The position numbers and the translations under genes are program-made. DNA of 59,531 nt from a virus (Duplodnaviria > Caudoviricetes), in the IMG/VR virus record IMGVR_UViG_3300021959_000043, positions 1-59,531 of that record. One strand, given 5' to 3'. Shown one piece after another: positions 7,426 through 41,402 of this stretch (its first letter is position 1; the number at the start of each line of letters is the position of its first letter). A model generated the notes under the pieces. It did no database searches. It saw nothing but the letters and a program-made list of their open reading frames with translations, and was not told where the DNA came from.

Positions 7426-7449
7426 TAATAATGTAATTAAATACAATAT

Positions 7450-10400: not shown

Positions 10401-13400
10401 TGCACAAGCATCTGGAAATTACTTACCAGTTGCAAATCCAACTTTTACAGGAACACTTACAGGACCAACAGTTAGGGTTACATCAGGATTATCAGTTGAT
10501 GGCGCTATGCTTGCTGGTAATACTTTTTCTGATCCTGATTTAGTTTTGACAGTTTTAGATACCGATACAACACAATCTATAAGGGATAAAATAAATGACA
10601 CCACAGCTATAACAAAAGTTAGTGATAGCACAGCACCCGCACCTGGTGTTTTTGCAGTTGACGGCGCTAATTATCCACAAGGTTTTGGTCCTTTTTATAC
10701 AATAGACGAAGGTGATACATTTACTTTTGAATTTTGGGTAAAAAAAGAATCTGGCGCTGCTACATCAGCTCTATTATATGCAGGCTCTAATTTTTACAAT
10801 GCCTCAGGAACTTACCTAGGTAACTCACAAAGGTATTGGGGTGAATCTGGACTTCAATTGGCCAACTTTACTGATTGGTATCACGTGAGCGGCACATTGG
10901 GACCTACTAGAGGTAGTAGTACTAGTCAAATACCTACAACAGCTGTTTCTATGAGATTGTTGTTTTTATTTAATTATAATCCTAACGCGTCAATAGTAAC
11001 ACATTATTGTGGCTTAAAAGTATACAAGTCAAGTAAAACGGTAACTCAGTTATATAGAAAAACCTTAGGCAGTGAGGCTAACACAACACGAAACAGAGAT
11101 TTAGTAGTTGATCAAAACGGTGATCTTTATGGTAGCAATTTAACCATTACCGGTAATCTTATTGGTAATACTTCTAACACTACAGAATTAGGTACATATT
11201 CTACAGGTGCTATAAAAAGAATTAGGATGTGTCAAGGTGGTGAATTACACTTTGGTGATACTACTACTAGTGCACCTCTTGGTATAACTGAAGGTCAATG
11301 GAATAGTTTTAGTGACCAAGATAGGTTAAGTATTTATGGAAGAAGCTCAATCACCTTTTATGCAGGTTCAACTGCAGCAGTTTTAGCTGCCACATTACAA
11401 TCAACAGGGCTTACATTAAACACTATAACAAATGCTACTGCAGATACTGATAAATTCTTAGTATCAGACTCAGGTGTAATTAAATATAGAACAGGTGCAC
11501 AGGTTTTATCTGATATTGGCGCAGCTTCTTCTGGTTCTTTAGGTAATTACTTACCTTTAGCAGGCGGCACAATGTCTGGCACTATTAATTCAACCGCGAC
11601 TACAGCTCTTCAAATGGATGGAGCAGCATCAGCTCAAGGTATATTAATGCGAGCAGATTCATCAGGTACTTACCCTGTATTTTTAAGAGAACAAAATCCA
11701 GCTTCTGGAGGAGAGACTTCATCTTGGTTATTTAAAGATGCTGTTTCACCTTGGGGTATATGGCACAATAATCCAAATGATTCATTTGATTGGACTAGAG
11801 CTGGAAACAATCTTGGTATTGCAAATAATGTAGGTGGCGAAACAAATAGCGTTATGATTCGCTTAAGAAGCGCAGATGGTAGTGGAACTTTTGCTGGGAA
11901 CGTAACAGCCACGGGTGATGTAACCGCTGATCAATTTTTCTCTACCAACAATGGTAATGGACAAAACTATAAAATAGGAGATGATGTTTATATTGGTGAT
12001 ATTAATGTAGCTAATACGTTTAGAGTTCAAGGAGCACAAACTCCTGCTAATGGTTATATAACATTTGGTAATTCAAGCAACACCCAATTAGGTAGAGCTG
12101 GAACTGGTCCTTTAACTTGGGGTGGAAACTTTGAAGTTAGCGGAACAACAACCTTAAACAATCAGTTAACATTCCCATATGCATATTTAGGCGATTATAT
12201 TTATCACACCGGGGATGGTAATACTTATTTTGGTTTTCCAAGTAATGACATTTTTAGAGTTGTTACTGGCGGTACAGCAAGATTTGAAATAACTACTTCA
12301 ACTGTTAATGTAAGTAACGCATCTTTCAAAGCTTTAGGCGCTTTAGCTACAGGCCCTGGAATGGCTGAAACAGGAGTTGGATTAGGTCAAGCATCAAACT
12401 ATGCCCACGCTCAATTTAGTGGTTCCGCTGGTGGCTATATTGATTTTGCGGAACCTAATGTAGATTGGTCTGGTCGTATTATTTATACTCATAGTTCTGA
12501 TTCTATGGTATTTTATACAGCAACAACTGCGGTTTTAACGTTAGACAGCTCTAACAACGCAACTTTTACAGGCAATATTGTAATGGGTGATAATGACATT
12601 ACCGGTATAGATGAATTACTATGGAGTTCAGGAACAAAAATAGGAGACGATGGGGCTGGTTTGTTAAAATTAACATCTGCTGCCTCAACAGAATCTGGGA
12701 TACGATTTGATGATGCTGATGGGCAATTACAGGGATATGTGTACGGAGATGGTGGTGCAGCATCTTCTTTTGGTTTATTAGATGGTACCGGTCAATGGGC
12801 AGTAAGATGTTTGGAAAATCAATATGTAGAATTACGTTATGATAATGCTGCAAAGTTTCAAACTCTTACAGATGGAGTGTATGTAGCTGGAAAATTAGGA
12901 ATAGGAACGTCAACTCCAGACACAGATGGTTATGGTTATGCTGAAGACTTAGTTATAAAAGGAGGTGCTTCAGCTCAAGATGGTGCTGGAATTACAATAG
13001 CAGGTAACGGAAAAAGATATGGTGTCATAGCGTTTGGTGATGCCGCAGATGTTAATGCAGGTGAAATATTCTATGACCATAACATAAATGCTCTGTATTT
13101 TAGAACAAACGGTAGCGGTTATAATGTTTTTATTAACTCTGCTGGTAAAGTAACAGCTGGCGCAGCTACAAGTTCTAGTGATGGTTCAAGTACACTTACA
13201 ACTAAAGGCTACGTAGATGCTCATCCAGGTTCAGGCGGTACAGTAACATCTGTTGCAACTGGAGGCGGCTTAGATGGTGGAACTATAACAAATGCCGGAA
13301 CAATAGAAGTAGAATACGACGGTGTTCCTACTAACATAATACAATCAGGTTTTGATTTTACTGGAGATACTGTAGTATCAGGAGATTATATAATGATATC

Positions 13401-14475
13401 AGACCCTGGTTCAACAACTACTAATAGAAGAATTGGTTATGTTACTGTTGGTGATTTGCCTTTTACTAATAATTCAGGTGACATAACAAGTGTTACCGCT
13501 GGCACAGGATTAACTGGTGGTGGTACATCAGGAGGTGTAACTTTAAATGTTGATTATTTAGGTAGTGATAGTATTATAAAAGCAGCGCCAACATTAAGTG
13601 CTGCTGTTGCTTCATCTGATTTTTTACTAATGGCTGCTTCTAATGGTAATGTATTCGAAACAACTTTTAGTAATTTGCCGTTTGTGTCGTCAAATGATAG
13701 TACAGTTATAAGAACTACAGGTGGTCAAACACGTCAAGGTAATAATACATTTGCGGCTACAAGTACTAGTACTAGCTACACCAATGCAGGTGTAGAATTA
13801 AGAGAATCTAATTTATCAGGTTCTTCTGGAACTGCTCCATTTATAAGTTGGCATTGGGGCGGAGTTGTAGCCTCGTCAATGGCGATTGAAGCAAACGGTA
13901 CAATAGCTGTTAGAAACAATCCGGGAACTGCATATGAGAAATTTGCATGCGGTAATTTAACAGCTCACGGCGGCACCTTTGTTTTAGGTAGCGGCGGGGT
14001 TGGTGATATGTACATAGGTAATAACGCAACAAATAAGTATTTTAGGTTTCATACTAATAATAATCAGACCTACTTTGACATGAACTGCGGCACCATTAAC
14101 TGGAGAGAAGGAAGTTCAACTAGGTATTATTTTTATCCTTCGTCTGCTAACATGACTATCAATGGTACGTTGACACAAAACTCTGATGAAAGAGTAAAAG
14201 AAAATATAGTTGAAATAAACGATTGTATTGGTAAGGTTCAAGCAATGAAAGGTGTTTACTATAATAGAACTGATTTTAACACAGAGGTTACAAAGGTGGG
14301 TGTTATAGCCCAAGATGTTGAAGCTGTCTTACCAGAACTTATATTAGAAGCTCCTGATACAGGACTTAAGTCTGTGGCTTATGCAGAATTAACAGCTGTG
14401 CTAATAAACGCAATAAAAGAGCAGCAAGAAATAATAGAAGATTTAAAAACAAGAGTGCAACAATTAGAAAAATAA
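7450..14475 (+). CDS. long tail fibre / receptor-binding protein with C-terminal peptidase S74 intramolecular chaperone (2341 aa)
   Basis: G/T/S-rich modules, DAANKLYVD repeats; C-terminal SDERVKENI...GVIAQDVEAVLPELI...YAELTAVLINAIKEQ coiled coil. Confidence 0.9.
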   Translation: MALNFLSNGIFAGDVTIPEYIYHTGNTSQDKFGFAGNDTFVISTNGTDKFTADANSAILLEAGITKLQTTSTGVGITGTATATTFSGAVSTGNVDGQANIPFKLSVDYNSYMVAAAGTTWGLFWAGNSGARYGTNGNGGPGNIWGNSGNPNEFVFVGGDSTRWTVNGNSGDTWQSGDIYVGGGDIILSGTGRIQGVDTVSANTDAANKLYVDNAVAASPQGTVTISGTPVNNQLAVWTSATSIEGESELTYDGNTFTVGGTGNTTTYLDVIGTNTAGAPATAAAIRIYGYEGRGEGIFYYDSAYASSEWYSGVPYSGGDTWQIGHDTGGQAQYTANALLRFTTAGAATFSGNITMLQTSGNNTLTIDSSGGGNPVIYLEDPTRKWGQFVASGDLYFKNETTNVNTLLLSGSDATFAGSLTIPDYVIHAGDTTTRFGFAAADTFQIDTDGSLRFGVNNSGMKLGGANARVTTIYDQDNMSSNSATALATQQSIKQYVDTAVSNAGTVTGTGSAGRVAFWNGTSAIASSSNLYWDNASAELGVGTSSPTTSFTIQSGHSTTRANLYYNGSTNANNAYIDMWASEPGVTYNGSGIGSNINGSPYYGRKVTEQGQTYIRFIDGQFEVYTGTNSSGTSSTAVRRLYIEDNGLATFSTTPEVGTRSVGDNTGRAASTAFVTTAIGNVDTGVQSVSDDGGSTINVSGSTTQRVVTAVTGAVSSSSANLATGAQIQTAINTAIGTIPSGLAFEGNWDASTGNPPSSSPSNGQFWIVTVAGSTSLSGITDWKVGDWAIYVEQGAGTDAWQKVDNTSTLSGDGVANQLTYWTSTSNVAGDTGLTYNASTNKLTVAGNLSAAGYNIFGLGLSTGSWYGDLGSNGYTRETGLQMTSGSEFVVVSKNGQGSTLVDGAYLAYESANGFFGSYNSTYGNLTGIRATAANTLTVTQLDGGTANLAITSIANATTDTDKFLVSDSGVVKYRTGAQVLSDIGAQASGNYLPVANPTFTGTLTGPTVRVTSGLSVDGAMLAGNTFSDPDLVLTVLDTDTTQSIRDKINDTTAITKVSDSTAPAPGVFAVDGANYPQGFGPFYTIDEGDTFTFEFWVKKESGAATSALLYAGSNFYNASGTYLGNSQRYWGESGLQLANFTDWYHVSGTLGPTRGSSTSQIPTTAVSMRLLFLFNYNPNASIVTHYCGLKVYKSSKTVTQLYRKTLGSEANTTRNRDLVVDQNGDLYGSNLTITGNLIGNTSNTTELGTYSTGAIKRIRMCQGGELHFGDTTTSAPLGITEGQWNSFSDQDRLSIYGRSSITFYAGSTAAVLAATLQSTGLTLNTITNATADTDKFLVSDSGVIKYRTGAQVLSDIGAASSGSLGNYLPLAGGTMSGTINSTATTALQMDGAASAQGILMRADSSGTYPVFLREQNPASGGETSSWLFKDAVSPWGIWHNNPNDSFDWTRAGNNLGIANNVGGETNSVMIRLRSADGSGTFAGNVTATGDVTADQFFSTNNGNGQNYKIGDDVYIGDINVANTFRVQGAQTPANGYITFGNSSNTQLGRAGTGPLTWGGNFEVSGTTTLNNQLTFPYAYLGDYIYHTGDGNTYFGFPSNDIFRVVTGGTARFEITTSTVNVSNASFKALGALATGPGMAETGVGLGQASNYAHAQFSGSAGGYIDFAEPNVDWSGRIIYTHSSDSMVFYTATTAVLTLDSSNNATFTGNIVMGDNDITGIDELLWSSGTKIGDDGAGLLKLTSAASTESGIRFDDADGQLQGYVYGDGGAASSFGLLDGTGQWAVRCLENQYVELRYDNAAKFQTLTDGVYVAGKLGIGTSTPDTDGYGYAEDLVIKGGASAQDGAGITIAGNGKRYGVIAFGDAADVNAGEIFYDHNINALYFRTNGSGYNVFINSAGKVTAGAATSSSDGSSTLTTKGYVDAHPGSGGTVTSVATGGGLDGGTITNAGTIEVEYDGVPTNIIQSGFDFTGDTVVSGDYIMISDPGSTTTNRRIGYVTVGDLPFTNNSGDITSVTAGTGLTGGGTSGGVTLNVDYLGSDSIIKAAPTLSAAVASSDFLLMAASNGNVFETTFSNLPFVSSNDSTVIRTTGGQTRQGNNTFAATSTSTSYTNAGVELRESNLSGSSGTAPFISWHWGGVVASSMAIEANGTIAVRNNPGTAYEKFACGNLTAHGGTFVLGSGGVGDMYIGNNATNKYFRFHTNNNQTYFDMNCGTINWREGSSTRYYFYPSSANMTINGTLTQNSDERVKENIVEINDCIGKVQAMKGVYYNRTDFNTEVTKVGVIAQDVEAVLPELILEAPDTGLKSVAYAELTAVLINAIKEQQEIIEDLKTRVQQLEK

Positions 14476-14865: not shown

Positions 14866-14885
14866 GTAAATATTACTAAAAACCA

Positions 14886-14900
14886 GTGATAATATAAATA
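14886..14900 (+). promoter_or_regulatory. late promoter-like motif upstream of the chaperonin operon
   Basis: GTGATAATATAAATA in an intergenic gap. Confidence 0.55.
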
Positions 14901-15304: not shown

Positions 15305-16858
15305 ATGTCAGACAAAATAGTAAAAAACCTTAGTTTTGGAAAACAAGCTAAGGAAGAGGTTTTTATTGGTATAGAAAAACTAGCAAAAGCTGTTAGCTCA
15401 ACTTTAGGAGCTGGTGGTAGTTGCGTTTTATTAGAAGACCAGTTTGGAAACCCAATGATAACAAAAGATGGAGTTACAGTCGCTGAAAGCGTAGTGTTAA
15501 GAAACCCAGTAGAAAACTTAGGTTGCAACTTATTAAAGCAAGCTGCAAAAAAAACTGTAAAAGAAGCGGGAGACGGCACTACCACAGCCACTGTTTTAGC
15601 CTACGCAATACTGCAAGAGGCTTATAAAGTACAAGAAAAAACAAACAATAGAGAGTTAAAAGAAGGTATAAACAAAGCTGTTGATGAGGTTATAGAGTAT
15701 TTATGTAAAATATCAAAACCCATAAAGAATAACATGGTTAATCAAATAGCTACTATATCTACTAATAATGATAAAAAACTAGGTAACTTAATAGGTGAAG
15801 CTTTTAAATCTGTAAATAATACAGGTGTAGTAATGATGGAGCAGTCAGACTCTGATAAAACAGAGTTAGAAACAATAGAAGGCTCTCAGTATTTTAAAGG
15901 ATTATTAAGCCCTCACTTTGTTACTAATAAAATTAAAAAAACAGCAGAACTAAACAACCCTTTAGTTTTGTTGATAGAAAATAACGTTGAAAACATAAGA
16001 CAAATACAAAGTGTCTTAGAATATGTTATAAAAAATAATAAACCATTATTAATTATAGCTGACTTAAGCCCCGAGGTTTTATCTGCTTTAGCAATGAATA
16101 AAACTAAAGGTAACATAAAAGTAAACGTTATATCAGCACCAGTTTTAGGTGTAAACAGAAAACAAATGTTTGATGATCTAGCGCTTCTAACTGGCGCTAC
16201 TTTAATAAACGAGGATTTAGGTGACGATATGGATTTAATTGAAATAGAACACTTAGGAGCATGTTTTAAATCAATAACTAGCGATCAAGATACTATACTT
16301 CAGTTTGAATCTCAGAATAACGAGTGCTTTGAAATAATTAAAGACATAAAGAAAAAGCTTTTAACATGTAAGATACCTGATCAAATAATAAGTTTAGAAA
16401 AAAGATTAGCAATGTTATCTTCAAAGATAGCTGTAGTAAAAGTAGGTGCTAATTCTGAAATAGAACTTAAAGAGAAGATGGATAGGGTTGAAGATGCTAT
16501 TTGTGCTACAAAAGCCGCTGTTAAAGAAGGTATTGTTCCTGGAGGTGGTATAGCTTTGTTAAATGCTTCTAACCATATAAATGCAGAAACTATTGCAGGT
16601 AAGGTTTTAGCTAAAGCTATTAAAGCTCCTTACGAAACAATACTAACAAACGCTGGACTAAAAATAAATTATCCAAAAAATGATTGTTTTGGTTTAGATG
16701 TGGTTACAGGAAATATGGTAAATATGACTAATCAAGGAATAATTGATCCCTTATTAGTTACTAAAAGCGCTTTAAAAAATGCGGCTTCTGTGGCAACAAC
16801 TATTTTATCTACAAATTGTGTAATCAATAATTTAAGAATAGATGAAAGCAATAGGTAG
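15305..16858 (+). CDS. groL: phage chaperonin GroEL (Cpn60)
   Basis: ITKDGVTVA, AGDGTTTATVLA, DRVEDAICATKAA, GIVPGGG, IIDPLLVTKSAL motifs; no GGM tail. Confidence 0.97.
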   Translation: MSDKIVKNLSFGKQAKEEVFIGIEKLAKAVSSTLGAGGSCVLLEDQFGNPMITKDGVTVAESVVLRNPVENLGCNLLKQAAKKTVKEAGDGTTTATVLAYAILQEAYKVQEKTNNRELKEGINKAVDEVIEYLCKISKPIKNNMVNQIATISTNNDKKLGNLIGEAFKSVNNTGVVMMEQSDSDKTELETIEGSQYFKGLLSPHFVTNKIKKTAELNNPLVLLIENNVENIRQIQSVLEYVIKNNKPLLIIADLSPEVLSALAMNKTKGNIKVNVISAPVLGVNRKQMFDDLALLTGATLINEDLGDDMDLIEIEHLGACFKSITSDQDTILQFESQNNECFEIIKDIKKKLLTCKIPDQIISLEKRLAMLSSKIAVVKVGANSEIELKEKMDRVEDAICATKAAVKEGIVPGGGIALLNASNHINAETIAGKVLAKAIKAPYETILTNAGLKINYPKNDCFGLDVVTGNMVNMTNQGIIDPLLVTKSALKNAASVATTILSTNCVINNLRIDESNR

Positions 16859-20006: not shown

Positions 20007-20007
20007 A

Positions 20008-20029
20008 ACAGTAGGGAACTGTAAAACCC
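20008..20029 (+). promoter_or_regulatory. predicted H-type RNA pseudoknot in a 5' leader
   Basis: S1 ACAGT 20008-12 / ACTGT 20018-22; S2 GGG 20014-16 / CCC 20027-29. Confidence 0.5.
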
Positions 20030-20033
20030 AAGT

Positions 20034-20071
20034 CAAACACAAACACAAACACAAACACAAACACAAACACA
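20034..20071 (+). repeat. (CAAACA)6 hexanucleotide tandem repeat abutting a start codon
   Basis: Six perfect units 20034-20069 plus CA, then ATG at 20072. Confidence 0.95.
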
Positions 20072-20356
20072 ATGGCAAAATTTATCGAAATCCCAGTAAC
20101 AAGCTCAACTGCTTACGAAGCTGGAAAAAAATTAATCAACGTAGAAGATGTATCACTAGGAGTATGTAGTGCTGCTAACACTGTTAAACTATTTTTAGGA
20201 ACAGGAGGAAAGCATATTGCACTTACAACATCTGCTGGTAAAGGTCTTGATGTATTAAACGCTTGTAACGCGGCTATGACAGCTAACCCAGGGGGTATCA
20301 AAGCTAAAGTACAATTACCAACTGGAGTAGCAATTTCAGCAGTAGCAGTAGCTTAA
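20072..20356 (+). CDS. small A/V/G/T-rich protein, probable virion (decoration-type) protein
   Basis: ORF track; structural-protein composition; followed by a strong terminator. Confidence 0.7.
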   Translation: MAKFIEIPVTSSTAYEAGKKLINVEDVSLGVCSAANTVKLFLGTGGKHIALTTSAGKGLDVLNACNAAMTANPGGIKAKVQLPTGVAISAVAVA

Positions 20357-20891: not shown

Positions 20892-22970
20892 ATGGCATTT
20901 AAGAAAAATTATTTTAAAGGATTACAAAGTGGTGTTAATCACAGTCCACTTAAAATGCATGACGGTAAACCTCATAGTAAAAAAGATTTTAAAGGTTTAC
21001 TAGCACATAAGCTTGCTAGTAAAGAACCTGTAGTCAACGAAAGACTACAAAACCAAAATACTTCAGATAATCTAACTGTAGAAAAATTTAGAAAAAATAA
21101 CAATATATCTTCAGAAAATTTAAAAAATAACGCGGCCGTAATAAAAGAGCGAAAGGTAAGAAAAATACAGGAAAATCAAAACAAAAACAGAGCAAGTATT
21201 AGCCAAGGAGCTGTAACAGAACAAGAAAAAGAACAAGCAGCAATAGAAAGTAAAAGAGGCGAAGAAATAAACAACGCATCATTAAGCTTACTAGAAAGAC
21301 CTCTAGCTTACTTAAATGATCCCTCTGCTGTTTTAGGTGATATGGGTATTAATTCTTTTTTAGGTTTTAATACTGGAAACACAACACAGTTAGCTAAAGA
21401 TATAGAAACAATGAGGCAAGATCCTAACTTGTCTTATTTTGATAAACTAAAAGCTAAAACTAAAATGGGTGTTGATATGGTTCCAGCAGCAACTGTTAAT
21501 ACTGCGTTAGGTATGATAGGTGCTGGAGGTGTAGGTACTGGAGCTAAAGGAGCAGCTAGTTATATGGGAAATATTTTAAACAATGCTCTTAATCCTTTAG
21601 CTGGTCTAGGTAAACCTACGGGGCAAGTTTTTAATAATATTGTTAAAAACGTTGATAACAAAGCTGCTAATGCGGTTACAAAATTTGGCAAAGAAAACGC
21701 AAGTACTTGGAATAAAATAACTGGAAGGTTTAAGCCTAAAGTTAAGGAAGATATGTATAATACACTTTCTGGTTTGGCCGAAGGAGCAGACATGAGCACT
21801 GCTCAAAGAGAAGCTTTAATTGAAAGAATTAATTCACCAGAAGGTAGGAAAAGATTATTTGATCAAGAACTCAGTTATTTAGAAAGTCAACTTGAATCTA
21901 CAGGAGAATTAATTAAAAATCCTAAATCACATTATCATCCTTGGATAAGAAATCAAGATCCTTTAAATCCAAACTTAAGTATTACTGAAAACTCATTAGG
22001 AGGTGTTTTGCAAAATCAAAAAAACTTATTCAGCGATGACTTAAGTACTCAAGCAATGAAAAACGTTGATTTTAGAATAAAAGAATTATCTAAACCTAAC
22101 ATAAATGAGTTAGCAAAAGATGCAATAGAAGGTGGTAAGTTAAATTATAGCAAAGGATCAGATTTATTATATAGTGACAAACTTCCAGAAAATTTTTTAA
22201 ATAATAATGCAACTTTTGGTGGTCAAATAGATGGTAGTACAGCAAGTCAGATGACTAACCCTATAGGTGAAGCTATTTATGGACCTCAACAAAGTTCACA
22301 ATTAAACGACGGGGTTTTTGTATTAGGAGGTAAAGGAACTAAAAACAAACAAACGTGGGCACATGAAATACAACATGGTGGTCAAGCAGGTCGTGTAACG
22401 CCTCTTGATGATGAACTTCGTGCTATAATTAAACCAAATAAAGCTATAAAAAAATACGAACAAACTGTTCAAGACCTTATAGAAGCTAGAGATGTTCACG
22501 CTATGGGAAGCGAAAAGGGATATTCTATGCAAGGGTATCGCAAAGGTCAACAAGCCTTAGATGATTATATAGAAGTTTCTGATAAATTTATAGGAGATCA
22601 GTTGTTTGATTATAATTATTTTCAAACTGGTTCTGCAGGAAAAGAACCATTAGCTTTTGCAGGTGAATTAAGGCAAAGTCTAATAGATGGTGGTTTTTTG
22701 AAACATGAATATGATAACATAACGCCAAATGTTTTATTAAAAGCAAAAAAACATTTTAAATCAAACCCAGTTATTAGCAAAGCTACTATTGCCCCTGGCT
22801 CAACTGCAAATGTTAGTGCTCATAGAATTTTTGATTTTATGGATGACTCGATGGAAAACATGAAAAAATTATCAAGCTCACTAAACAAATTACCATTATC
22901 TGTGGCTCCAATAATAGGTGCCAGCGCTATGCTTTCGCAAAATAAAGAACAAGAACAAGAACAACAGTAA
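20892..22970 (+). CDS. 692-aa putative virion-internal protein with C-terminal zincin-like motif
   Basis: WAHEIQHG at 22362-22376 and downstream EPLAFAGELR; G/A-rich central segment. Confidence 0.65.
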   Translation: MAFKKNYFKGLQSGVNHSPLKMHDGKPHSKKDFKGLLAHKLASKEPVVNERLQNQNTSDNLTVEKFRKNNNISSENLKNNAAVIKERKVRKIQENQNKNRASISQGAVTEQEKEQAAIESKRGEEINNASLSLLERPLAYLNDPSAVLGDMGINSFLGFNTGNTTQLAKDIETMRQDPNLSYFDKLKAKTKMGVDMVPAATVNTALGMIGAGGVGTGAKGAASYMGNILNNALNPLAGLGKPTGQVFNNIVKNVDNKAANAVTKFGKENASTWNKITGRFKPKVKEDMYNTLSGLAEGADMSTAQREALIERINSPEGRKRLFDQELSYLESQLESTGELIKNPKSHYHPWIRNQDPLNPNLSITENSLGGVLQNQKNLFSDDLSTQAMKNVDFRIKELSKPNINELAKDAIEGGKLNYSKGSDLLYSDKLPENFLNNNATFGGQIDGSTASQMTNPIGEAIYGPQQSSQLNDGVFVLGGKGTKNKQTWAHEIQHGGQAGRVTPLDDELRAIIKPNKAIKKYEQTVQDLIEARDVHAMGSEKGYSMQGYRKGQQALDDYIEVSDKFIGDQLFDYNYFQTGSAGKEPLAFAGELRQSLIDGGFLKHEYDNITPNVLLKAKKHFKSNPVISKATIAPGSTANVSAHRIFDFMDDSMENMKKLSSSLNKLPLSVAPIIGASAMLSQNKEQEQEQQ

Positions 22971-22991
22971 TGTAATAAACTTAACTAATAT

Positions 22992-23006
22992 GTAATTATT
23001 TACATA
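22992..23006 (+). promoter_or_regulatory. late promoter-like motif upstream of the gldL-like gene
   Basis: GTAATTATTTACATA in a 78-nt intergenic gap. Confidence 0.5.
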
Positions 23007-23048
23007 GAGATTATATATTGAATCTTTATAATAATTAAATCAAATATT

Positions 23049-23474
23049 ATGTTAAAAAACTTAAGTGCAACAAACATGCTTTATGGAATTGGAGCTGCAA
23101 TCGTTATTTTAGGAGCTTTGTTTAAAATTCAACACTGGCAAGGTGGTTCTTTATTATTAACCATAGGTATGATAACAGAAGCTATTGTTTTTACTTATTC
23201 TGCTTTTGAAAAAAAAGAAGATAAAATAATTAGTAGTGATCCATATGATCCTACTGTTATTATAAGTGCTCAAAAAGAATATGTTAAACAAATTAAAGAC
23301 GCTGTTAAAAATGTTTCTTTAATGAATGAAGTTCATGAAAATCAACTTAAACTCGCTAAGAGTTCAACCGGTGCTTATAAAACAATTAATACAGAAGCTA
23401 ATTCTTTAGCTCAACATACTTATTTTATGAGTAAAACTTATTATTCAATATTAAAAGCAATGAAAAGCAAATAA
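23049..23474 (+). CDS. gldL: GldL/PorL-like T9SS-gliding motor subunit homologue, internally shortened (141 aa)
   Basis: NMLYGIGAAIVILGALFKIQHW...IGMITEAIVFTYSAFE matches the GldL two-TM signature; C-terminal YYSILKAM resembles the GldL C-terminal YGGMLSAM. Confidence 0.85.
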   Translation: MLKNLSATNMLYGIGAAIVILGALFKIQHWQGGSLLLTIGMITEAIVFTYSAFEKKEDKIISSDPYDPTVIISAQKEYVKQIKDAVKNVSLMNEVHENQLKLAKSSTGAYKTINTEANSLAQHTYFMSKTYYSILKAMKSK

Positions 23475-23476
23475 CT

Positions 23477-23878
23477 ATGAAAAAAATATGGGAATGGTTA
23501 AGTGGTAGCGTTATAAAAGAGGTTGGTGAAGTTATTGATAAACTAACTACTACTAAAGAAGAAAAGCTTTTAATAAAAAAAGAAATACAAAAAATATTAG
23601 AAGAAGCAGATAATAAAGCTCAAGAGCAAGTTACTAAAAGATGGGAGTCAGACATGCAGTCAGACAGTATATTGTCAAAGAACATAAGACCTTTAGTGCT
23701 TATATATTTAACTGTTATATTTACTGCTTGCGCTTTTTTTCACGGTAATGTAGGAGAGTTTAAAATAGCAGAAGAATATATACCAATATTTCAAACATTA
23801 TTAGTAACTGTTTACGGTGCTTATTTTGTTGGTAGAACTTGGGAAAAAGCAAAAAAAATAACAAATAAAAAAGATTAA
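23477..23878 (+). CDS. holin (3TM / GTA-type family)
   Basis: RWESDMQSDSILSKNIRPLVLIYL...YGAYFVGRTWEK with hydrophobic helices. Confidence 0.75.
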   Translation: MKKIWEWLSGSVIKEVGEVIDKLTTTKEEKLLIKKEIQKILEEADNKAQEQVTKRWESDMQSDSILSKNIRPLVLIYLTVIFTACAFFHGNVGEFKIAEEYIPIFQTLLVTVYGAYFVGRTWEKAKKITNKKD

Positions 23879-23880
23879 AA

Positions 23881-24201
23881 ATGGGACAATTTAAAATACA
23901 AGACTCTACTATAAGTCAAGCTATGCCTTTGACGGCGGCTATGATAGCTAGTATTGACGTTAGACCAGCTTGGGCATTTGAAAACCAAAGTGGAACATTA
24001 GGTACTAACCTAAATTCATCTGTAATATATTGCGGTGTAATGCCAGCTGACGCATCAATAAGCGTAAGACTACCAGGTAATTCACAAGTAATAGAATTTA
24101 AAGGTTTACAATCTGGATCAATACTTCCAGTAGTTGTTGATTACGTTACAGCTGTGGCAGGCACTGGTGTAACAGTAAGTGACTTTATAGTAGGAAAATA
24201 A
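23881..24201 (+). CDS. hypothetical beta-rich protein, probably virion
   Basis: ORF track; FKGLQSGSILPVVVDYV. Confidence 0.65.
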   Translation: MGQFKIQDSTISQAMPLTAAMIASIDVRPAWAFENQSGTLGTNLNSSVIYCGVMPADASISVRLPGNSQVIEFKGLQSGSILPVVVDYVTAVAGTGVTVSDFIVGK

Positions 24202-24212
24202 AAACAAAACAA

Positions 24213-24227
24213 GTAACTATATAAATA
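24213..24227 (+). promoter_or_regulatory. late promoter-like motif upstream of the packaging/head operon
   Basis: GTAACTATATAAATA. Confidence 0.55.
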
Positions 24228-24251
24228 TTAATAATCAAATAAAATCAAATT

Positions 24252-24512
24252 ATGAGTGAAGTAAAAGAGTTAACAAAAAAAATTACAGAAGAACAACTTA
24301 AGACAGTTCAAGACCAACAAGGTAAGCTACAGGAAGCTTTGAGAACTATAGGTGTTTTAGATGTTCAAAAACAAAACGTTCACGGTCAAATATCTTTATT
24401 ATCTAAAGAAATAGAAGAGACAAAGAAAGGACTAGAAGAAGAGTACGGTCAAGTAAATATTAACTTACAAGATGGTACATATGAAGAGATTGTAGAAGAA
24501 GATGAAAAATAA
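24252..24512 (+). CDS. coiled-coil hypothetical protein (86 aa)
   Basis: Heptad pattern. Confidence 0.75.
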   Translation: MSEVKELTKKITEEQLKTVQDQQGKLQEALRTIGVLDVQKQNVHGQISLLSKEIEETKKGLEEEYGQVNINLQDGTYEEIVEEDEK

Positions 24513-24729
24513 TATAAGAAAAATAAGCATAGGTTCTGATTATAAAAACGACGCTATGCATTATTCTATTGGTCAACAAGTTTATGGCGGTCACGAGATA
24601 TCGCATATAATATTTGAAGAGCAAGATAATTCTTATAATATACATATAAAGAAAAAAGACGAGGTATTGCCATGGAAGAAATTTAATTCTAACATGGCTA
24701 TATCAGTTGAGTATGATCTACAGTATTAA
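24502..24729 (+). CDS. hypothetical protein (75 aa)
   Basis: ORF track; coupled to neighbours. Confidence 0.75.
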   Translation: MKNNIRKISIGSDYKNDAMHYSIGQQVYGGHEISHIIFEEQDNSYNIHIKKKDEVLPWKKFNSNMAISVEYDLQY

Positions 24730-25334
24730 TGAAAAGTATATATGACTTTATAGTTAAACCTTTAGGTGAAAAATATAATAATAAAATAAACATAAAAAAT
24801 AAAGAGTTATATTTAAACACAAAAATAGAAGGATGGAAATTTGTTAATAGACTTGCTATTGTTGTGGAAACACCTCTAGCATTTGATATTGGTATAAAAA
24901 AAGGTGATACCGTTGTTATACATCAAAATGTTTTTAGAACTTTTTATAACAGTAAAGGTGTTAAGAAAAAAAGTAGATCTTTTTTTAAAGAAGATTTATA
25001 TTTTTGTGCTTTAGATCAAATATATTTATATAAAAATAACTCAACATGGAAGTCTATCGGTGATAGATGTTTTGTTATGCCTATAATTAATAACGATCAG
25101 TTTAGCAACAAAAAAGAAAAAGACCTTATTGGTGTATTAAAATACGACAATAGCTCTTTAAACGCGCTAGAAATAACATCTGGAGATCTTGTTGGTTATA
25201 CGCCAAATAGTGAATGGGAGTTTTTAATAGAAGGGCAAAGACTTTATTGTATGAAATCTAATGATATTGTAATTAAATATGAATACCAAGGAAACGAAAA
25301 AGAATATAATCCAAGCTGGGCACGTAGCGGTTGA
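24729..25334 (+). CDS. tandem GroES-like co-chaperonin protein (201 aa)
   Basis: Two repeats: FIVKP...AIVV...IKKGDTVV and SIGDRCFVMP...GVL...ITSGDLVGY...IEGQRLYCMKSNDIV. Confidence 0.6.
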   Translation: MKSIYDFIVKPLGEKYNNKINIKNKELYLNTKIEGWKFVNRLAIVVETPLAFDIGIKKGDTVVIHQNVFRTFYNSKGVKKKSRSFFKEDLYFCALDQIYLYKNNSTWKSIGDRCFVMPIINNDQFSNKKEKDLIGVLKYDNSSLNALEITSGDLVGYTPNSEWEFLIEGQRLYCMKSNDIVIKYEYQGNEKEYNPSWARSG

Positions 25335-25554
25335 GGAATTAATAAAGGTTGCTAAGGAAGCTATTGTTGATTCAGACGACGATATTTCTGCTGATAGATT
25401 AAAAAACGCGGCTGCAACTAAAAAACTAGCTATATTTGATGCATTTGAAATATTAAGCCGTATCGAGGAAGAAGAGAATTTATTAAATAATAAGCCTAAA
25501 GAAGTTAAAGAAGAAAGAACTTTTAAAGGTTTTGCAGAAGGTAGATCTAAGTAA
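25279..25554 (+). CDS. putative terminase small subunit
   Basis: Small helical protein directly upstream of and coupled to TerL; call rests on position. Confidence 0.45.
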   Translation: MNTKETKKNIIQAGHVAVEELIKVAKEAIVDSDDDISADRLKNAAATKKLAIFDAFEILSRIEEEENLLNNKPKEVKEERTFKGFAEGRSK

Positions 25555-36343: not shown

Positions 36344-39300
36344 ATGGCAGAAGCTAAAAATAGTTTCATTAAGTCTAGAATGAACAAAGACTTAGATGAA
36401 AGATTAATTCCAAATAACGAATACAGAGATGCTTTAAATATAGCTATATCTAGATCAGAAGGTAGTGACGTTGGCGCTGTTGAATCTATATTGGGTAACT
36501 CTTCTACAGCTGTAAAACCTGATAGTGGTAATCATATAATAGGTCTTTATTCTGATGAAGCAAATAATAAATTATATTATTTTAGAACAAACCACACTAA
36601 TACAAAAGAAAACGCACCTTTATCTGCTATTTGCACTATAGGTTATTTAAATACATTAAACAACACAAACGTAGTTTTAGTTCAAGGTTCTTTTTTAAAC
36701 TTTTGTAGCGAAGACTTTGTAAACGGTATAAGTTTAATTGAAAATCAATTGTTTTTTACAGACAATAGAAACCAACCAAGAAAAATAAACGTAGAGCAAA
36801 AGCTAGGTTATTACACAAATGAAGACCAAATATCTGTTGCTAAATTTGCACCATACACGCCACCTTCTTTTATTAACTTAAGAGCAGGTGCTTCTTATTA
36901 TGCTAATTTTACAAACACAACAAAACCTTCTACAATGTCGGATGCTCAAGATCCACCAATTGTACAGATAGGTATATACAAATTATCACAAAATAACTTA
37001 AGTGTTAAAAAATATAGAAACGGCGATGTGATACCAGAGTCAACCACGTTGTCTGATTGGAATCAAAAAAATACAAATGAAATAGGTTCTTGGTGTTATT
37101 ACGCTAATTACAATGGTAACGGTATAACATATGGACTTCTTTATAATAAGTGGGCTATTATGGATGCTAGAGGTTTAGCCCCAGTAGGTCACACTATACC
37201 TTCATTAGCAGATTGGAATGGCATTATTTCAGCAGGAACAACAAATGCTAATTTATATAAAAGCACCGATTTATGGAGTTCAGGACCTGGAAGTAACCAA
37301 ATAGGTTCAGATGTTTTACCTGCTGGTTTTAGAGACGGTACAACTACTAGTTCAGATGGGTTTATTAACTTAACAGCAGAATCTAGATTTTGGACAAGTG
37401 ACGCTATTTCAAATAGTAGCGCCCCTTATGTTAAGTTTGATACCACAGCAAATATTAATGTATCTGGTACTTCACCTACTGTTGATGGTTATTCTGTTAG
37501 AGTTTTAAGAGATGGAAACTATACAGGCTGGAACGGTGATCCAGATTATTTATCAGATAAATTTGTAAAATTTTCTTATAGGTTTAAATTTGATGACAAT
37601 GAGTATTCTACTGTAGCTCCTTTTAGTCAAGATGTTTTTATACCTTATCAAGAAGGTGAGTTTGTTAATGACGATGAAAATCAAGCTTTCATATCTAGCG
37701 TTGTTGAATTTATGCAGAACTCTATTAATAATGCTGTATTAAATATAGAATTACCTTGTATTGATATAATAAACAAATACAAAGTAAAAGCTATTGATAT
37801 AATTATTAAGCAGTCAGACATGCAGGCTTATCAAGTTATAGAAACAGTAAAAGTAGATTCTAACTTTATATCAAATCTTAACAATACTAATATTTATCAA
37901 TATTCTTATGAATCAACAATTCCGATTCAAACCCTACCTGATAGTCAATCAACTAGAGTTTTTGACAAAGTACCTGTAAAAGCTTTAGCTCAAGAATCTA
38001 CTGGCAACAGAATAATGTATTCAAACTATTTAGAAAGCCATAGCGCACCTAATGGTTTAGACTATTATGTAGGTATTGGTAATAAAAGTTTACAACAGTT
38101 TGTTGAATACCCTCAGCATTCATTGAAACAAAATAGAAATTATCAAGTTGGTATAATACTTGTTGATAAATATGGAAGACAGACAGATGTTATACTTTCT
38201 AATTATGATGGTGTTTTAGATGAAAATGGAAACCCACAACCAGGTTCTAATTACTATAGTGATTATAAACCAATTAGTTGGAGTAGTTTACAATTACCAA
38301 CATGGCCTGGGGATACGTTAGAATTAAAATATTTGCAACCTATACCAGAAGGTGATATAGGTATTAATGGTTATCCTGGCGCTTATGCTGTTGGTAATTA
38401 CTATGAGGTTGACACAGAAACAGCTAGTTCACCAAGTGCTTTATATGCTTATTTTCACAGTATAGGAACACAATGTATTATACCCACAGCTCTACAAACT
38501 GTTTTTAACACAGCTATAGTTTATGCTGATGCAACAGCTTCTTCAAATACTTTTAATGTATATGTAGATTCAGGTAATGGATGGATATTACAAAACCCTT
38601 CAACAACTCCACCAACTTATACTGTTTTAGATAATTCTGGAAGTGTTAGAGTAACCTTTAATTCAGGTCTTGCGGTAAATCAAGTTGTTAAGTTTGAAGT
38701 TCTTTACACTAATGACAAATACTACAAATACGCGACAGGAGCCGCATCTAGTACAACTAGACCTCTTTTTCCTAATTTTCCAGCTCAATATTCAAAATAT
38801 TATTCTGTTGGTAAGAAGTTAAAAGGATTATATATAGATTATACAGAAATAGCTAGTGTAACACCTATATCTGATTCTAATGGTGTTAGAGCTGTAACTT
38901 TTTTTACAAAACAAGAAGTTGATACTAATTATCTTTTTGACGAAACACCTGCGGCTAGACCTGAGCCTTCTAAATTTGATCAAAAAAACACTTATGCTAC
39001 ATACAATATAAATGTTTTAGGTTTTTATATTTATAAGTCAGCGGTAAAACAACAACAACAAGATTACTATAATGTGTATCTTCCTGGTATTGTAAATGGA
39101 TACCCAATTAGTGGCGAAACTTTAGAACAAGGTGAAATAGCGTTTACTACATTAATAAGTGACAACATAAATAAAGTTCCTAGAAACCTACAAGACGTAG
39201 GCCCTAATCAAGAGCAGTTTACTAGTGACGTGACAATGTGGCCTAGGGTAACTAATATGACAGAGGTTGAATCAAGTACAATTACATATTCTACTTTCAA

Positions 39301-41371: not shown

Positions 41372-41387
41372 AAAATAAATAAAACAA

Positions 41388-41402
41388 GTGATTATATAAT
41401 AA
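41388..41402 (+). promoter_or_regulatory. late promoter-like motif
   Basis: GTGATTATATAATAA immediately before ATG 41404. Confidence 0.5.

What the first reader, a model, noticed from the sequence alone, without database searches (positions are those of the whole stretch)
22992..23878. Phage-encoded mini-GldL (T9SS/gliding motor subunit) with its own late promoter, directly upstream of the holin
Seen: the 141-aa ORF begins with the two-TM GldL/PorL signature (N9, Y12, GAAxVIxGALFK26, H29, TE44A, SAFE54) and ends in YYSILKAMKSK, which resembles the GldL C-terminal helix (YGGMLSAM). It lacks the DWxxVYPEL segment and much of the cytoplasmic region. No gldK, gldM or gldN is in the window. A late-promoter-like motif precedes it, and the holin starts 2 nt after its stop. 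Established: GldL5-GldM2 is the proton-driven motor of T9SS and gliding in Bacteroidota; the TM2 glutamate (E49 in F. johnsoniae, here E44) is essential; gld mutants of F. johnsoniae are phage resistant. Inference: the phage subunit could enter host motors as a dominant-negative or uncoupling subunit. That would halt gliding and adhesin secretion, giving superinfection exclusion or preventing progeny from adsorbing to debris. Alternatively it could leak protons and time holin triggering. I do not know of a described phage motor-subunit mimic of this kind.
Basis: partly seen in the sequence, partly recalled or inferred. Interest (0 to 1): 0.92.

Follow-up and report, generated by a model that had tools for sequence, protein, structure and literature searches.

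The report
Phage-encoded short GldL motor subunit
A group of marine phages that infect Flavobacteria carries a shortened copy of GldL, the proton-channel subunit of the host's gliding and type IX secretion motor, and sister phages also carry its partner GldM, which suggests that these viruses tamper with or take over that motor.

Summary
Window 23049-23474 encodes a 141-aa GldL homologue (Pfam GldL_N E 9.5e-24; TIGR03513 above cut-off). It lies in a 59.5-kb, about 93% complete phage genome, 2 nt upstream of a holin.

It is GldL with an internal deletion. Both membrane helices, every motor residue tested in F. johnsoniae and the C-terminal helix are kept. The "cage" motif and about 60 cytoplasmic residues are lost.

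It is not a contaminant:
- Its GC content is phage-like.
- 18 further IMG/VR contigs of the same phage group carry a short GldL.
- 14 DNA runs hold the stretch.

The membrane hairpin is under strong purifying selection (dN/dS 0.07-0.24).

New here: sister phages (L018/L019) have the short gldL unlinked from the holin and followed by a complete gldM (R9 and Y17 kept). A distant phage (L074) has a 95-aa version.

Best reading (confidence 0.4): a phage-supplied stator subunit joins GldM in proton-conducting motor units that escape host cytoplasmic control. Dominant-negative exclusion and holin-linked proton leak remain live rivals.

The "late promoter" is not shown. I found no paper on phage-encoded GldL or GldM. 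First readers of this scan noted short phage GldLs on other DNA; those notes are unchecked.

The parts
22971..23048 (+). 78-nt AT-rich spacer between the upstream 692-aa gene and the short gldL. It is conserved among related phages and may be a leader or promoter, but this is unproven.
   Evidence: It is one of only 11 gaps of 25 nt or more in the + strand gene array. Mean column identity is 81% over six phages. Promoter scans are not above chance.
23049..23474 (+). Short GldL (141 aa), homologue of the type IX secretion / gliding motor subunit GldL/PorL.
   Evidence: Pfam GldL_N E 9.5e-24. TIGR03513 86.3 bits, above the 68.3 cut-off. PDB GldL chains E 1e-15. dN/dS 0.28-0.40 against five relatives.
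23067..23207 (+). Membrane hairpin: helix 1 (residues 7-27), periplasmic loop carrying K26 and H29, helix 2 (residues 33-53) carrying E44.
   Evidence: AlphaFold model has H7-27 and H33-53. The top 8 Foldseek PDB hits are GldL/PorL chains, rmsd 0.9-4.1 A over 46-61 columns. dN/dS for residues 1-56 is 0.07-0.24.
23208..23249 (+). Short variable linker (residues 54-67) standing where bacterial GldL has the cage motif and about 60 further residues.
   Evidence: Alignment A1. pLDDT is under 50 for residues 57-63. dN/dS for residues 57-72 is 0.82-0.92 against L003 and L004, 0.21 against L005, and has no value against L015, where dS could not be computed.
23250..23468 (+). C-terminal cytoplasmic helix (residues 68-140), homologous to the last two helical segments of bacterial GldL and ending YYSILKAMKSK.
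   Evidence: Second aligned stretch. Alignments A1 and A3. Modelled as one long helix, pLDDT 81-88.
23477..23878 (+). Holin, translationally coupled to the short gldL (2-nt gap).
   Evidence: phrog_3427 E 4e-28. Pfam GTA_holin_3TM E 2e-5. Homologues annotated as holin in Nonlabens and Vibrio phages.
20892..22970 (+). Upstream neighbour: fast-evolving 692-aa protein with an HEIQH motif, function unknown. It is context only, not part of the motor gene.
   Evidence: ORF and sequence. No family hit. dN/dS 0.62-0.70. The Atlas gives leads only: viral clusters, 'Peptidase' and LPD23, all with scores under 0.9.

Best explanation
The gene encodes a phage-made, shortened GldL.

Shown: it is a GldL homologue that keeps the two membrane helices, the periplasmic loop and the C-terminal helix. 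It lacks the cytoplasmic cage and mid-domain. It is a long-standing, selected gene of a group of marine flavobacterial phages. Sister phages carry it together with a complete gldM.

Inferred: late in infection it inserts into the host inner membrane. It assembles around GldM dimers, perhaps in mixed rings with host GldL. The GldM is the host's in this phage and the phage's own in the sister lineage. The result is GldL5GldM2-type proton-conducting units. Because the proton-path residues are kept while the part of GldL that faces host cytoplasmic partners is lost, I think these units are active but escape host control. The phage would then keep, or force, type IX secretion and the gliding motor in a state that suits it, rather than simply jamming it. 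What the phage gains from this is not known.
For: Family membership:
- Profile, sequence and fold matches to GldL.

Motor residues:
- All residues shown by mutagenesis to matter in F. johnsoniae are present (Y13, K27, H30, E49, E59; N10 was also mutated). The passages are in bioRxiv 10.1101/2020.05.11.089193 and PMC8986121; the alignment is.
- N, Y, K, H and the helix-2 Glu are present in all 9 phage-borne sequences that I read: window, L003, L004, L005, L010, L015, L066, L018 and L074.

Selection and similarity to host:
- The membrane hairpin is under strong purifying selection, dN/dS 0.07-0.24.
- It is 70-78% identical to Psychroserpens/Winogradskyella-type GldL over the hairpin.

Sister phages:
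- L018/L019 encode the short GldL followed 42 nt later by a 530-aa GldM. That GldM has all four GldM Pfam domains and an N-terminus carrying R9 and Y17. Phage genes flank the pair on both sides.

Loss of the cage need not inactivate:
- Deleting it in F. johnsoniae gave only a small gliding defect (10.1101/2022.01.28.478170, passage).

What the lost region does:
- The GldL cytoplasmic domain binds phosphorylated PorX (PMC10951265, passages).
- PorL is needed for a large cytoplasmic complex (PMC9170169, passages).

Not an artefact:
- GC is 27.2% against 33.2% for the phage.
- The same arrangement recurs in related contigs.
- The stretch is held at 0.86 or more of its sampled words in 14 DNA runs.
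Against: - No expression, binding or phenotype data exist.
- This phage has no gldM, so everything depends on pairing with host GldM. I did not model that.
- Every phage version has lost 60-100 cytoplasmic residues. In 401 Flavobacteriaceae-family genomes, all 150 listed GldL matches lie in frames of 200-278 aa. Such consistent truncation is also what a dominant-negative subunit would look like.
- The gene sits in the late, structural gene array and is translationally coupled to the holin in all 11 loci of its type that I examined. This fits a lysis role.
- The function of the retained C-terminal helix is unknown.
- Whether the GldL-GldM phages and the GldL-only phages share one gene capture is unresolved (AU test p 0.32).
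Confidence: 0.4

Rival explanations
1. Dominant-negative subunit. The short GldL enters host GldL rings or captures host GldM. Lacking the mid cytoplasmic domain, it stalls the motor. This stops export of surface adhesins that serve as phage receptors, giving superinfection exclusion or less loss of progeny on cell debris.
For: - All phage versions are truncated in the same region, while the listed bacterial frames are 200-278 aa.
- The hairpin is close enough to host GldL to mix with it.
- Phage resistance through gliding/T9SS gene mutations is reported for F. psychrophilum (PMC9804748) and F. columnare (10.1101/2020.10.02.323337). For both I saw the search listing only.
Against: - An inert plug does not need the proton-binding Glu or Y12, yet they are kept in all 9 phage sequences read.
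- Sister phages also carry a complete four-domain GldM with R9 and Y17. That is costly for a mere poison.
- Exclusion genes are usually expected early (my own knowledge), but this gene lies in the late gene array.
- Cage deletion alone is nearly neutral in F. johnsoniae.
Confidence: 0.2
2. Lysis-clock component. Made together with the holin, the short GldL forms rings that are in excess of, or not plugged by, GldM. These rings leak protons, lower the proton-motive force and so time or sharpen holin triggering. Alternatively it binds the holin as a regulator.
For: - The junction to the holin is 2 nt or a 1-nt overlap in 11 of 11 loci of the window and P0121 types that I examined: window, L001-L007, L010, L015, L066.
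- Both are small inner-membrane proteins with long predicted cytoplasmic helical parts.
- The proton-path residues are conserved.
- That holins fire on loss of proton-motive force is my own knowledge.
Against: - In L018/L019 the gene is 3.7 kb from the holin and coupled to gldM instead. In L074 no holin is adjacent.
- The 11 loci are related phages with conserved gene order, so they are not independent.
- K26 and H29, which contact the periplasmic domain of GldM in the solved motor, have no role in a free leak channel but are conserved.
Confidence: 0.2
3. Passenger or decaying remnant of a captured host gene, or an assembly chimera, with no function for the phage.
For: It is shorter than bacterial GldL. 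The linker and part of the C-terminal region evolve fast, with dN/dS up to 0.9.
Against: - The frame is intact in every related contig examined.
- dN/dS of the hairpin is 0.07-0.24.
- GC and GC3 are fully phage-like.
- Phage genes lie on both sides.
- 14 DNA runs hold the stretch.
- 37 listed clusters (P0001-P0037), 135-148 aa and 59-99% identical, come from several sources.
Confidence: 0.03

Closest known systems
GldL/PorL of the GldL5GldM2 (PorL5PorM2) proton-driven motor of type IX secretion and gliding (PDB 6YS8, 7SAT, 7SAU, 7SAX, 7SAZ)
   Same: Two-helix membrane hairpin with N, Y, K, H and the helix-2 Glu. It also has the Glu after helix 2 and the C-terminal helix motif. Profile scores are above the curated cut-offs.
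   Different: It is 141 aa instead of 200-278 aa. The cage motif and about 60 cytoplasmic residues are missing. It is encoded by a phage next to a holin, not in a gldK-L-M-N operon.
Short GldL plus GldM pair of sister phages (IMG/VR contigs behind L018/L019; protein cluster P0125/P0273)
   Same: Same phage group (large terminase 74% identical). The GldL is likewise shortened (133 aa) with the same conserved residues.
   Different: It is followed by a complete 530-aa GldM and is not adjacent to the holin. The deletion boundaries differ, and the C-terminus is closer to bacterial GldL.
Phage-encoded T9SS cargo proteins ('Cryophage', Nat Commun 2020, PMC7468147; passages read)
   Same: A phage of Bacteroidota that carries genes exploiting the host type IX secretion system.
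   Different: Those are secreted substrates with C-terminal sorting domains. Here a component of the motor itself is encoded, and no T9SS sorting domain was found in the window.
Short bacterial GldL, such as that of Cardinium endosymbiont cBtQ1 (P0142, 151 aa) and P0300 (154 aa, on a 388-kb contig)
   Same: The same kind of internal shortening, with hairpin and C-terminal helix kept.
   Different: These are bacterial, and in the tree they sit next to different full-length GldLs. The function of the Cardinium gld genes is itself debated (PMC12342168, passage).
Phage copies of host machine subunits that replace or retune the host part (cyanophage PsbA, T4 gp31 co-chaperonin, phage ribosomal protein bS21); recalled, not searched here
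   Same: A host-derived subunit kept under selection in a lytic phage. This phage also carries GroEL and a GroES-like gene.
   Different: No ion-driven motor subunit is among the cases I recall, and this copy is systematically truncated.
Antiholins and holin partners (lambda S107, T4 RI); recalled, not searched here
   Same: A small inner-membrane protein encoded beside, and co-translated with, a holin.
   Different: Those are not homologues of a host motor protein. The adjacency is lost in L018/L019 and L074.

Membership tests
GldL/PorL (Pfam PF22827 GldL_N; NCBIfam TIGR03513) | Profile match above the curated cut-offs | tested here: met
   PF22827 scores 83.8 bits against 24. TIGR03513 scores 86.3 bits against 68.3.
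GldL/PorL | Two membrane helices joined by a short periplasmic loop, with the fold of solved GldL chains | tested here: met
   The model has H7-27 and H33-53, mean pLDDT 77. The top 8 Foldseek PDB hits are GldL/PorL chains.
GldL/PorL | Functionally important residues of F. johnsoniae GldL (N10, Y13, K27, H30, E49, E59) | tested here: met
   N9, Y12, K26, H29, E44 and E54 correspond by the 6ys8 alignment. Y12, K26 and E44 are invariant and H29 nearly so in A1 and A3. The residue roles come from passages.
GldL/PorL | Membrane-proximal cytoplasmic cage (DW..VYPEL; F. johnsoniae E64-L74) | tested here: not met
   It is absent in alignment A1. The cage is defined in 10.1101/2022.01.28.478170.
GldL/PorL | Cytoplasmic domain of about 150 residues | tested here: not met
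   There are about 85 residues after helix 2. The listed bacterial frames are 200-278 aa.
GldL/PorL | Conserved C-terminal helix (..LN.VY..ML.AM..) | tested here: met
   The end, TYYSILKAMKSK, aligns with it. Y131 and L135 are nearly invariant.
GldL/PorL | Encoded with gldK, gldM and gldN | tested here: not met
   None of the three was found in the window. The GldN search had no positive control. Sister phages do have gldM.
GldL/PorL | Forms a GldL5GldM2 complex and couples proton flow to secretion and gliding | not testable with these tools
   This needs biochemistry and genetics.
Holin (phrog_3427; Pfam PF11351), for the downstream gene | Profile match and small membrane protein | tested here: met
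   phrog_3427 E 4e-28. PF11351 scores 25.5 bits against 24.8. Relatives are annotated as holin.
Antiholin / holin regulator | Binds the holin or changes its triggering time | not testable with these tools
   Only gene adjacency is known.
Phage auxiliary (host-derived) gene | Host homologue inside a phage genome, flanked by phage genes, adapted in composition and under selection | tested here: met
   Terminase, portal and virion genes are in the same array. Synteny holds in related contigs. GC is 27.2% against 33.2%. dN/dS is 0.28-0.40.

The most novel reading that the evidence does not exclude
A widespread group of marine flavobacterial phages encodes parts of an ion-driven rotary motor. Some carry a minimal GldL alone and some a GldL-GldM stator pair. 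In the infected cell these build active motor units that no longer answer to host cytoplasmic control. If true, this would be the first virus-encoded component of a rotary motor and a new way for a virus to seize a secretion and motility machine.
Probability: 0.35. Interest if true: 0.9.

Novelty: new variant of a known kind. Interest (0 to 1): 0.8.

Why it matters
The GldLM motor drives both protein secretion and gliding in Bacteroidota. Its surface products include likely phage receptors. Phage copies of its core subunits would be a new kind of host takeover.

They would also give motor researchers natural minimal GldL variants of 95 to 148 aa. These show which parts evolution keeps (the hairpin and the last helix) and which it discards (the cage and mid-domain).

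The phage is common in marine, estuarine and viral metagenomes. Any effect on secretion of polymer-degrading enzymes or on surface motility of infected Flavobacteria could therefore matter for carbon turnover in blooms.

The idea is directly testable in F. johnsoniae or Cellulophaga baltica with existing assays.

Tried and rejected
Host contaminant or chimera: rejected on composition, synteny and independent runs.

The only GenBank phage record that matched (MT839621.1, 26% identity) is a bacterial-type gldK-gldL-gldM-gldN operon with no annotation, so it is not a phage case.

Cultured relatives: Flavobacterium elemo phages, Cellulophaga, Tenacibaculum and Maribacter phages and MW202828.1 match the terminase. 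They gave no GldL hit by tblastn at E 1e-3.

Phage cargo for T9SS: no Por_Secre_tail or CHU_C domain in the window.

Promoter: the sigma-70 scan and my own motif were not above chance or were absent at this gene.

Other short GldL clusters: P0047 and P0196 were not found in viral contigs. I did not search for P0098, P0137, P0138, P0254 or P0218 singly, so whether any of these seven is phage-borne is unknown.

Genome-contig scan: 33 loci, none a close relative of the short form. The best cover residues 9-104 at 41-43% identity or 7-125 at 44-47%.

Metagenome-contig scan with the phage GldM: 80 loci kept. Of the three I examined (L075, L076, L077), all are bacterial operons with a 210-212-aa GldL ahead of GldM; frames of gldK and gldN size flank them but were not scanned. 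The other 77 were not examined.

One capture or two: unresolved. The tree splits the window type and the L018 type with weak support. The AU test does not reject one clade (p 0.32).

Rows for these trees: I kept 195 of the 302 stored proteins (105-330 aa, starting with M, with a C-terminal helix motif). I thinned them to 76 at 88% identity and added 5 locus-derived rows. For one search I used a 45-row subset.

Complex prediction of short GldL with the holin: no answer (score 0.00, controls not run). This is no evidence either way.

PMC7785012 matched 'PorL' only through a place name. Supplementary files of papers were not consulted; supplementary tables of viral gene catalogues could list such genes without my seeing them.
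Full report
WHAT IS THERE

The window is a whole IMG/VR virus record of 59,531 bases, linear, with a CheckV completeness estimate of 93%. It is a tailed phage. PHROG profiles identify:
- large terminase, phrog_6681, E 9e-166;
- portal, E 3e-142;
- several virion structural proteins;
- GroEL;
- a 2341-aa protein with a tail-fibre C-terminus;
- ribonucleotide reductase.

The terminase is nearest to cultured phages of Flavobacteriaceae. It is 44.7% identical to that of the Flavobacterium elemo phages. It also matches Cellulophaga, Tenacibaculum and Maribacter phages, and it is 63% identical to an uncultured record, MW202828.1.

At 23049-23474 on the + strand lies a 141-aa ORF. It matches:
- Pfam GldL_N, E 9.5e-24, 83.8 bits against a cut-off of 24;
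- NCBIfam TIGR03513 PorL/GldL, 86.3 bits against 68.3, two stretches;
- five solved GldL/PorL chains, with 7sau at 1.3e-15 and 6ys8 at 5.3e-15.

The next ORF, 23477-23878, starts 2 nt after the stop. It is a holin (phrog_3427 E 4e-28; Pfam GTA_holin_3TM E 2e-5). Its relatives in Nonlabens and Vibrio phages are annotated as holin.

ANATOMY

I aligned the protein with bacterial GldL of 207-212 aa and with other short forms (A1; A3). The alignment shows GldL with an internal deletion.
- Kept: helix 1, the periplasmic loop, helix 2, and the last two helical segments. The stretch DPYDPTVIISAQKEY... corresponds to ..SPTVDAMASQKKY.., and the end TYYSILKAMKSK corresponds to VYGGMLSAMNKN.
- Lost: the segment DWSLVYPEL and about 60 residues after it.

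By the 6ys8 alignment, N9, Y12, K26, H29, E44 and E54 are F. johnsoniae N10, Y13, K27, H30, E49 and E59.

What the papers say about these residues (I read passages only):
- E49 is invariant and forms the ion pair with GldM R9.
- Y13 is part of the proton path.
- K27 and H30 lie in the periplasmic loop and appear to contact the first periplasmic domain of GldM. These three points come from bioRxiv 10.1101/2020.05.11.089193.
- E49 is needed for adhesion and secretion. E59 is needed for gliding but not for SprB secretion (PMC8986121).

The lost DW..VYPEL stretch is the 'cage', F. johnsoniae E64-L74. Deleting it gave a small gliding defect. Replacing it with a linker of the same length gave none (10.1101/2022.01.28.478170).

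An AlphaFold model built on 32 aligned sequences has mean pLDDT 77. It shows helices 7-27 and 33-53, a disordered stretch at 54-67 and one long helix at 68-140. Its eight best Foldseek matches in the PDB are all GldL/PorL chains.

IT IS A PHAGE GENE, NOT A CONTAMINANT

Composition. GC is 27.2% (GC3 12.7%) against 33.2% for the whole phage.

Related contigs. Scans of IMG/VR found a short GldL gene on 18 further contigs of the same phage group (L001-L007, L010-L019, L066).

Gene order. I compared gene order in L001-L007, L010, L015, L018, L019 and L066. L011-L014, L016 and L017 were not examined.
- In the window, L001-L007, L010, L015 and L066 the order is: fast-evolving 630-690-aa protein, short GldL, holin, small genes, GroES-like gene, terminase, portal.
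- The GldL-holin junction is 2 nt or a 1-nt overlap in 11 of 11 of these loci.

Independent runs. The 4.66-kb stretch 20892-25554 is held at 0.86-1.00 of its sampled words in 14 DNA runs labelled marine, viral, estuary and sediment metagenomes. Six of these may be sources of the record; eight belong to other studies.

Protein databases.
- The 5.8-billion-protein search returned 1167 hits. Among the 120 listed, 37 clusters of 135-148 aa are 59-99% identical to the query. Next come five short clusters of 79-109 aa (P0038-P0042), probably fragments. Then come mainly full-length GldLs of 206-212 aa from Psychroserpens, Winogradskyella and relatives, interspersed with three shorter forms (P0047, P0076, P0098). 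The full-length GldLs are 70-78% identical over the hairpin, or about 52-56% over 70% of the query.
- The representative library gave 1547 hits at E 0.001 or lower, 114 at 1e-10 and 2 at 1e-30.

Bacterial genomes. In 401 genomes of one Flavobacteriaceae-level family sample, 395 had a match. All 150 listed matches lie in open frames of 200-278 aa; 257 further matches were not listed. The scan of 185,579 species genomes with six peptide patterns found no close relative of the short form.

SELECTION

Values are against five relatives.
- Whole gene: dN/dS 0.28-0.40.
- Residues 1-56: 0.07-0.24.
- Linker: 0.82-0.92 against L003 and L004, but 0.21 against L005. No value was obtained against L015.
- C-terminal part: 0.30-0.92.
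- Terminase: about 0.1. Holin: 0.12-0.50. Upstream 692-aa gene: 0.62-0.70.
- dS of the short gldL is 0.35-0.41 against four relatives. That is lower than the terminase dS of about 0.9, and I cannot explain it.

THE NEW FACT: SISTER PHAGES CARRY GldM AS WELL

L018 and L019 come from two different IMG/VR contigs. Their terminase is 74% identical to the window's.
- The holin lies at 1818-2228.
- A 133-aa GldL (Pfam E 8e-26) lies 3.7 kb downstream at 5974-6375.
- After a further 42 nt comes a 530-aa protein with all four GldM Pfam domains: GldM_1st 2.5e-31, 2nd 1.3e-14, 3rd 9e-17, 4th 8.7e-13.
- Its N-terminus carries R9 and Y17.
- Homologues of window genes flank the pair on both sides. A third contig fragment, L022, has the end of the same gldM followed by the same downstream genes.

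The phage GldM is 36% identical over 380 residues to a Flavobacteriaceae GldM, with the membrane helix almost identical. It is at most 56% identical to any GldM in the metagenome scan. The three best loci of that scan are bacterial operons with a 210-212-aa GldL ahead of GldM.

Other lengths exist in phages:
- 109 aa in L066 (terminase 74% identical; holin 2 nt downstream);
- 95 aa in L074.

L074 is a 55.7-kb viral contig that shares only 22-23% identical virion proteins with the window. Its version is a hairpin plus a short tail ending ..NSILKRVFNAQ, and it is not next to a holin.

N, Y, K, H and the helix-2 Glu are present in all 9 phage-borne sequences that I read. The shortest forms suggest that what phages keep is the hairpin plus the last helix.

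PHYLOGENY

I built a tree of 81 rows on the 141 columns occupied in the window protein (quick IQ-TREE).
- The window-type short forms are one clade (SH-aLRT 98).
- That clade is sister (89) to a clade of 125-134-aa proteins of unknown context (P0047, P0098, P0137).
- Both sit inside a 38-row clade (96) with GldLs of about 200-215 aa.
- The L018 type falls among the full-length GldLs, with weak support.
- Other short forms each sit beside a different full-length GldL or PorL: P0138, P0254, P0196 and the Cardinium GldL P0142. Shortening has therefore happened several times.

An AU test does not reject a single clade of the known phage forms (p 0.32; 45 rows). One capture or several cannot be decided.

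HOW IT MOST LIKELY WORKS

Shown: the points above.

Inferred:
1. The hairpin is nearly host-like.
2. The residues that touch GldM and carry protons are under strong constraint.
3. So the protein most likely assembles with GldM. In this phage, which has no gldM, that must be host GldM.

Three outcomes are conceivable.

(a) Active but deregulated motor units. I favour this (0.4) for four reasons:
- Sister phages keep a whole stator pair.
- The catalytic Glu and Tyr are conserved everywhere.
- Cage loss is nearly neutral in the laboratory.
- The part that is lost is the part known to bind phosphorylated PorX (PMC10951265). It is also implicated in a large cytoplasmic assembly (PMC9170169).

(b) A dominant-negative subunit that shuts down export of receptor adhesins (0.2). 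The uniform truncation fits this reading. So does the fact that gliding/T9SS mutants resist phages (titles and abstracts only).

(c) A proton leak or holin partner that times lysis (0.2). The conserved translational coupling to the holin fits this. Against it, the coupling is absent in L018/L019 and L074, and the 11 coupled loci are relatives rather than independent cases.

I found no T9SS sorting domain in the window. The idea that the phage needs the system to export its own cargo therefore has no support here.

COMPARISON WITH WHAT IS KNOWN, AND NOVELTY

The protein is a member of the GldL family by profile, fold and residues. It fails the features 'cage', 'full cytoplasmic domain' and 'gldKLMN operon'.

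Four full-text searches returned no paper describing a phage-encoded GldL, PorL or GldM among the papers listed:
- GldL + phage;
- gliding motility / auxiliary metabolic / viral / GldL;
- type IX secretion / phage-encoded / PorL / T9SS / virus-encoded / prophage;
- gliding motility protein / phage genome / Flavobacteri / holin.

First readers of this scan have noted short phage GldLs on other DNA: e1-6338956, e1-6349977 and e1-6289129. These notes are unchecked. L074 fits the description in e1-6349977.

VERDICT

The finding is broader than stated: a phage group carries GldL, with or without GldM. I rate it a new variant of a known kind (host-derived phage genes that act on a host machine), with high interest.

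Noticed in passing
L018 5974-8010 and L019 (same coordinates); L022 11-994: Sister phages encode a short GldL followed by a complete four-domain GldM with R9 and Y17. This is a whole stator pair inside a phage genome.
   Followed up: yes
L074 6977-7264: A distantly related 55.7-kb viral contig carries a 95-aa GldL_N protein, a hairpin plus a short tail. It lies beside a lipoprotein-like 265-aa gene and two Cpn10 genes, not beside a holin.
   Followed up: partly
L009 (GenBank MT839621.1) 5525-9885: This record is filed as 'Bacteriophage sp.' but carries a bacterial-type operon: FGE-domain GldK, 243-aa GldL, GldM and GldN. It looks like bacterial DNA.
   Followed up: partly
window 15305-16858 and 24729-25334: The phage encodes a GroEL (phrog_5725, E 1.7e-129) and a 201-aa GroES-like protein (phrog_13932, E 1.4e-22) just upstream of the terminase.
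   Followed up: partly
window 20892-22970: The 692-aa protein upstream of the short gldL has an HEIQH motif, no family hit and high dN/dS (0.62-0.70). The Atlas gives only leads, to viral 'Peptidase' and LPD23 clusters.
   Followed up: partly
window 20007-20071: The intergenic gap contains about seven tandem CAAACA units directly upstream of the ORF at 20072.
   Followed up: no
window 23049-23474 against neighbours: Synonymous divergence of the short gldL between related phages (dS 0.35-0.41) is less than half that of the terminase and holin (about 0.9-1.2). This is unexplained. It could reflect recent exchange between phages or a constraint at the nucleotide level.
   Followed up: no
window 14885-14898, 24212-24225, 41387-41400: Three intergenic gaps share the motif AGTRAYWATATAAW just upstream of genes. 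Counting one-mismatch hits, it occurs 6 times against 2.44 expected, which is not significant. It might be a phage promoter element.
   Followed up: partly
window 7450-14475, 36344-41371, 45576-52934: There are three very large ORFs of 2341, 1675 and 2452 aa. The first ends in a tail-fibre domain, the second starts like a virion structural protein, and the third has no PHROG hit.
   Followed up: no
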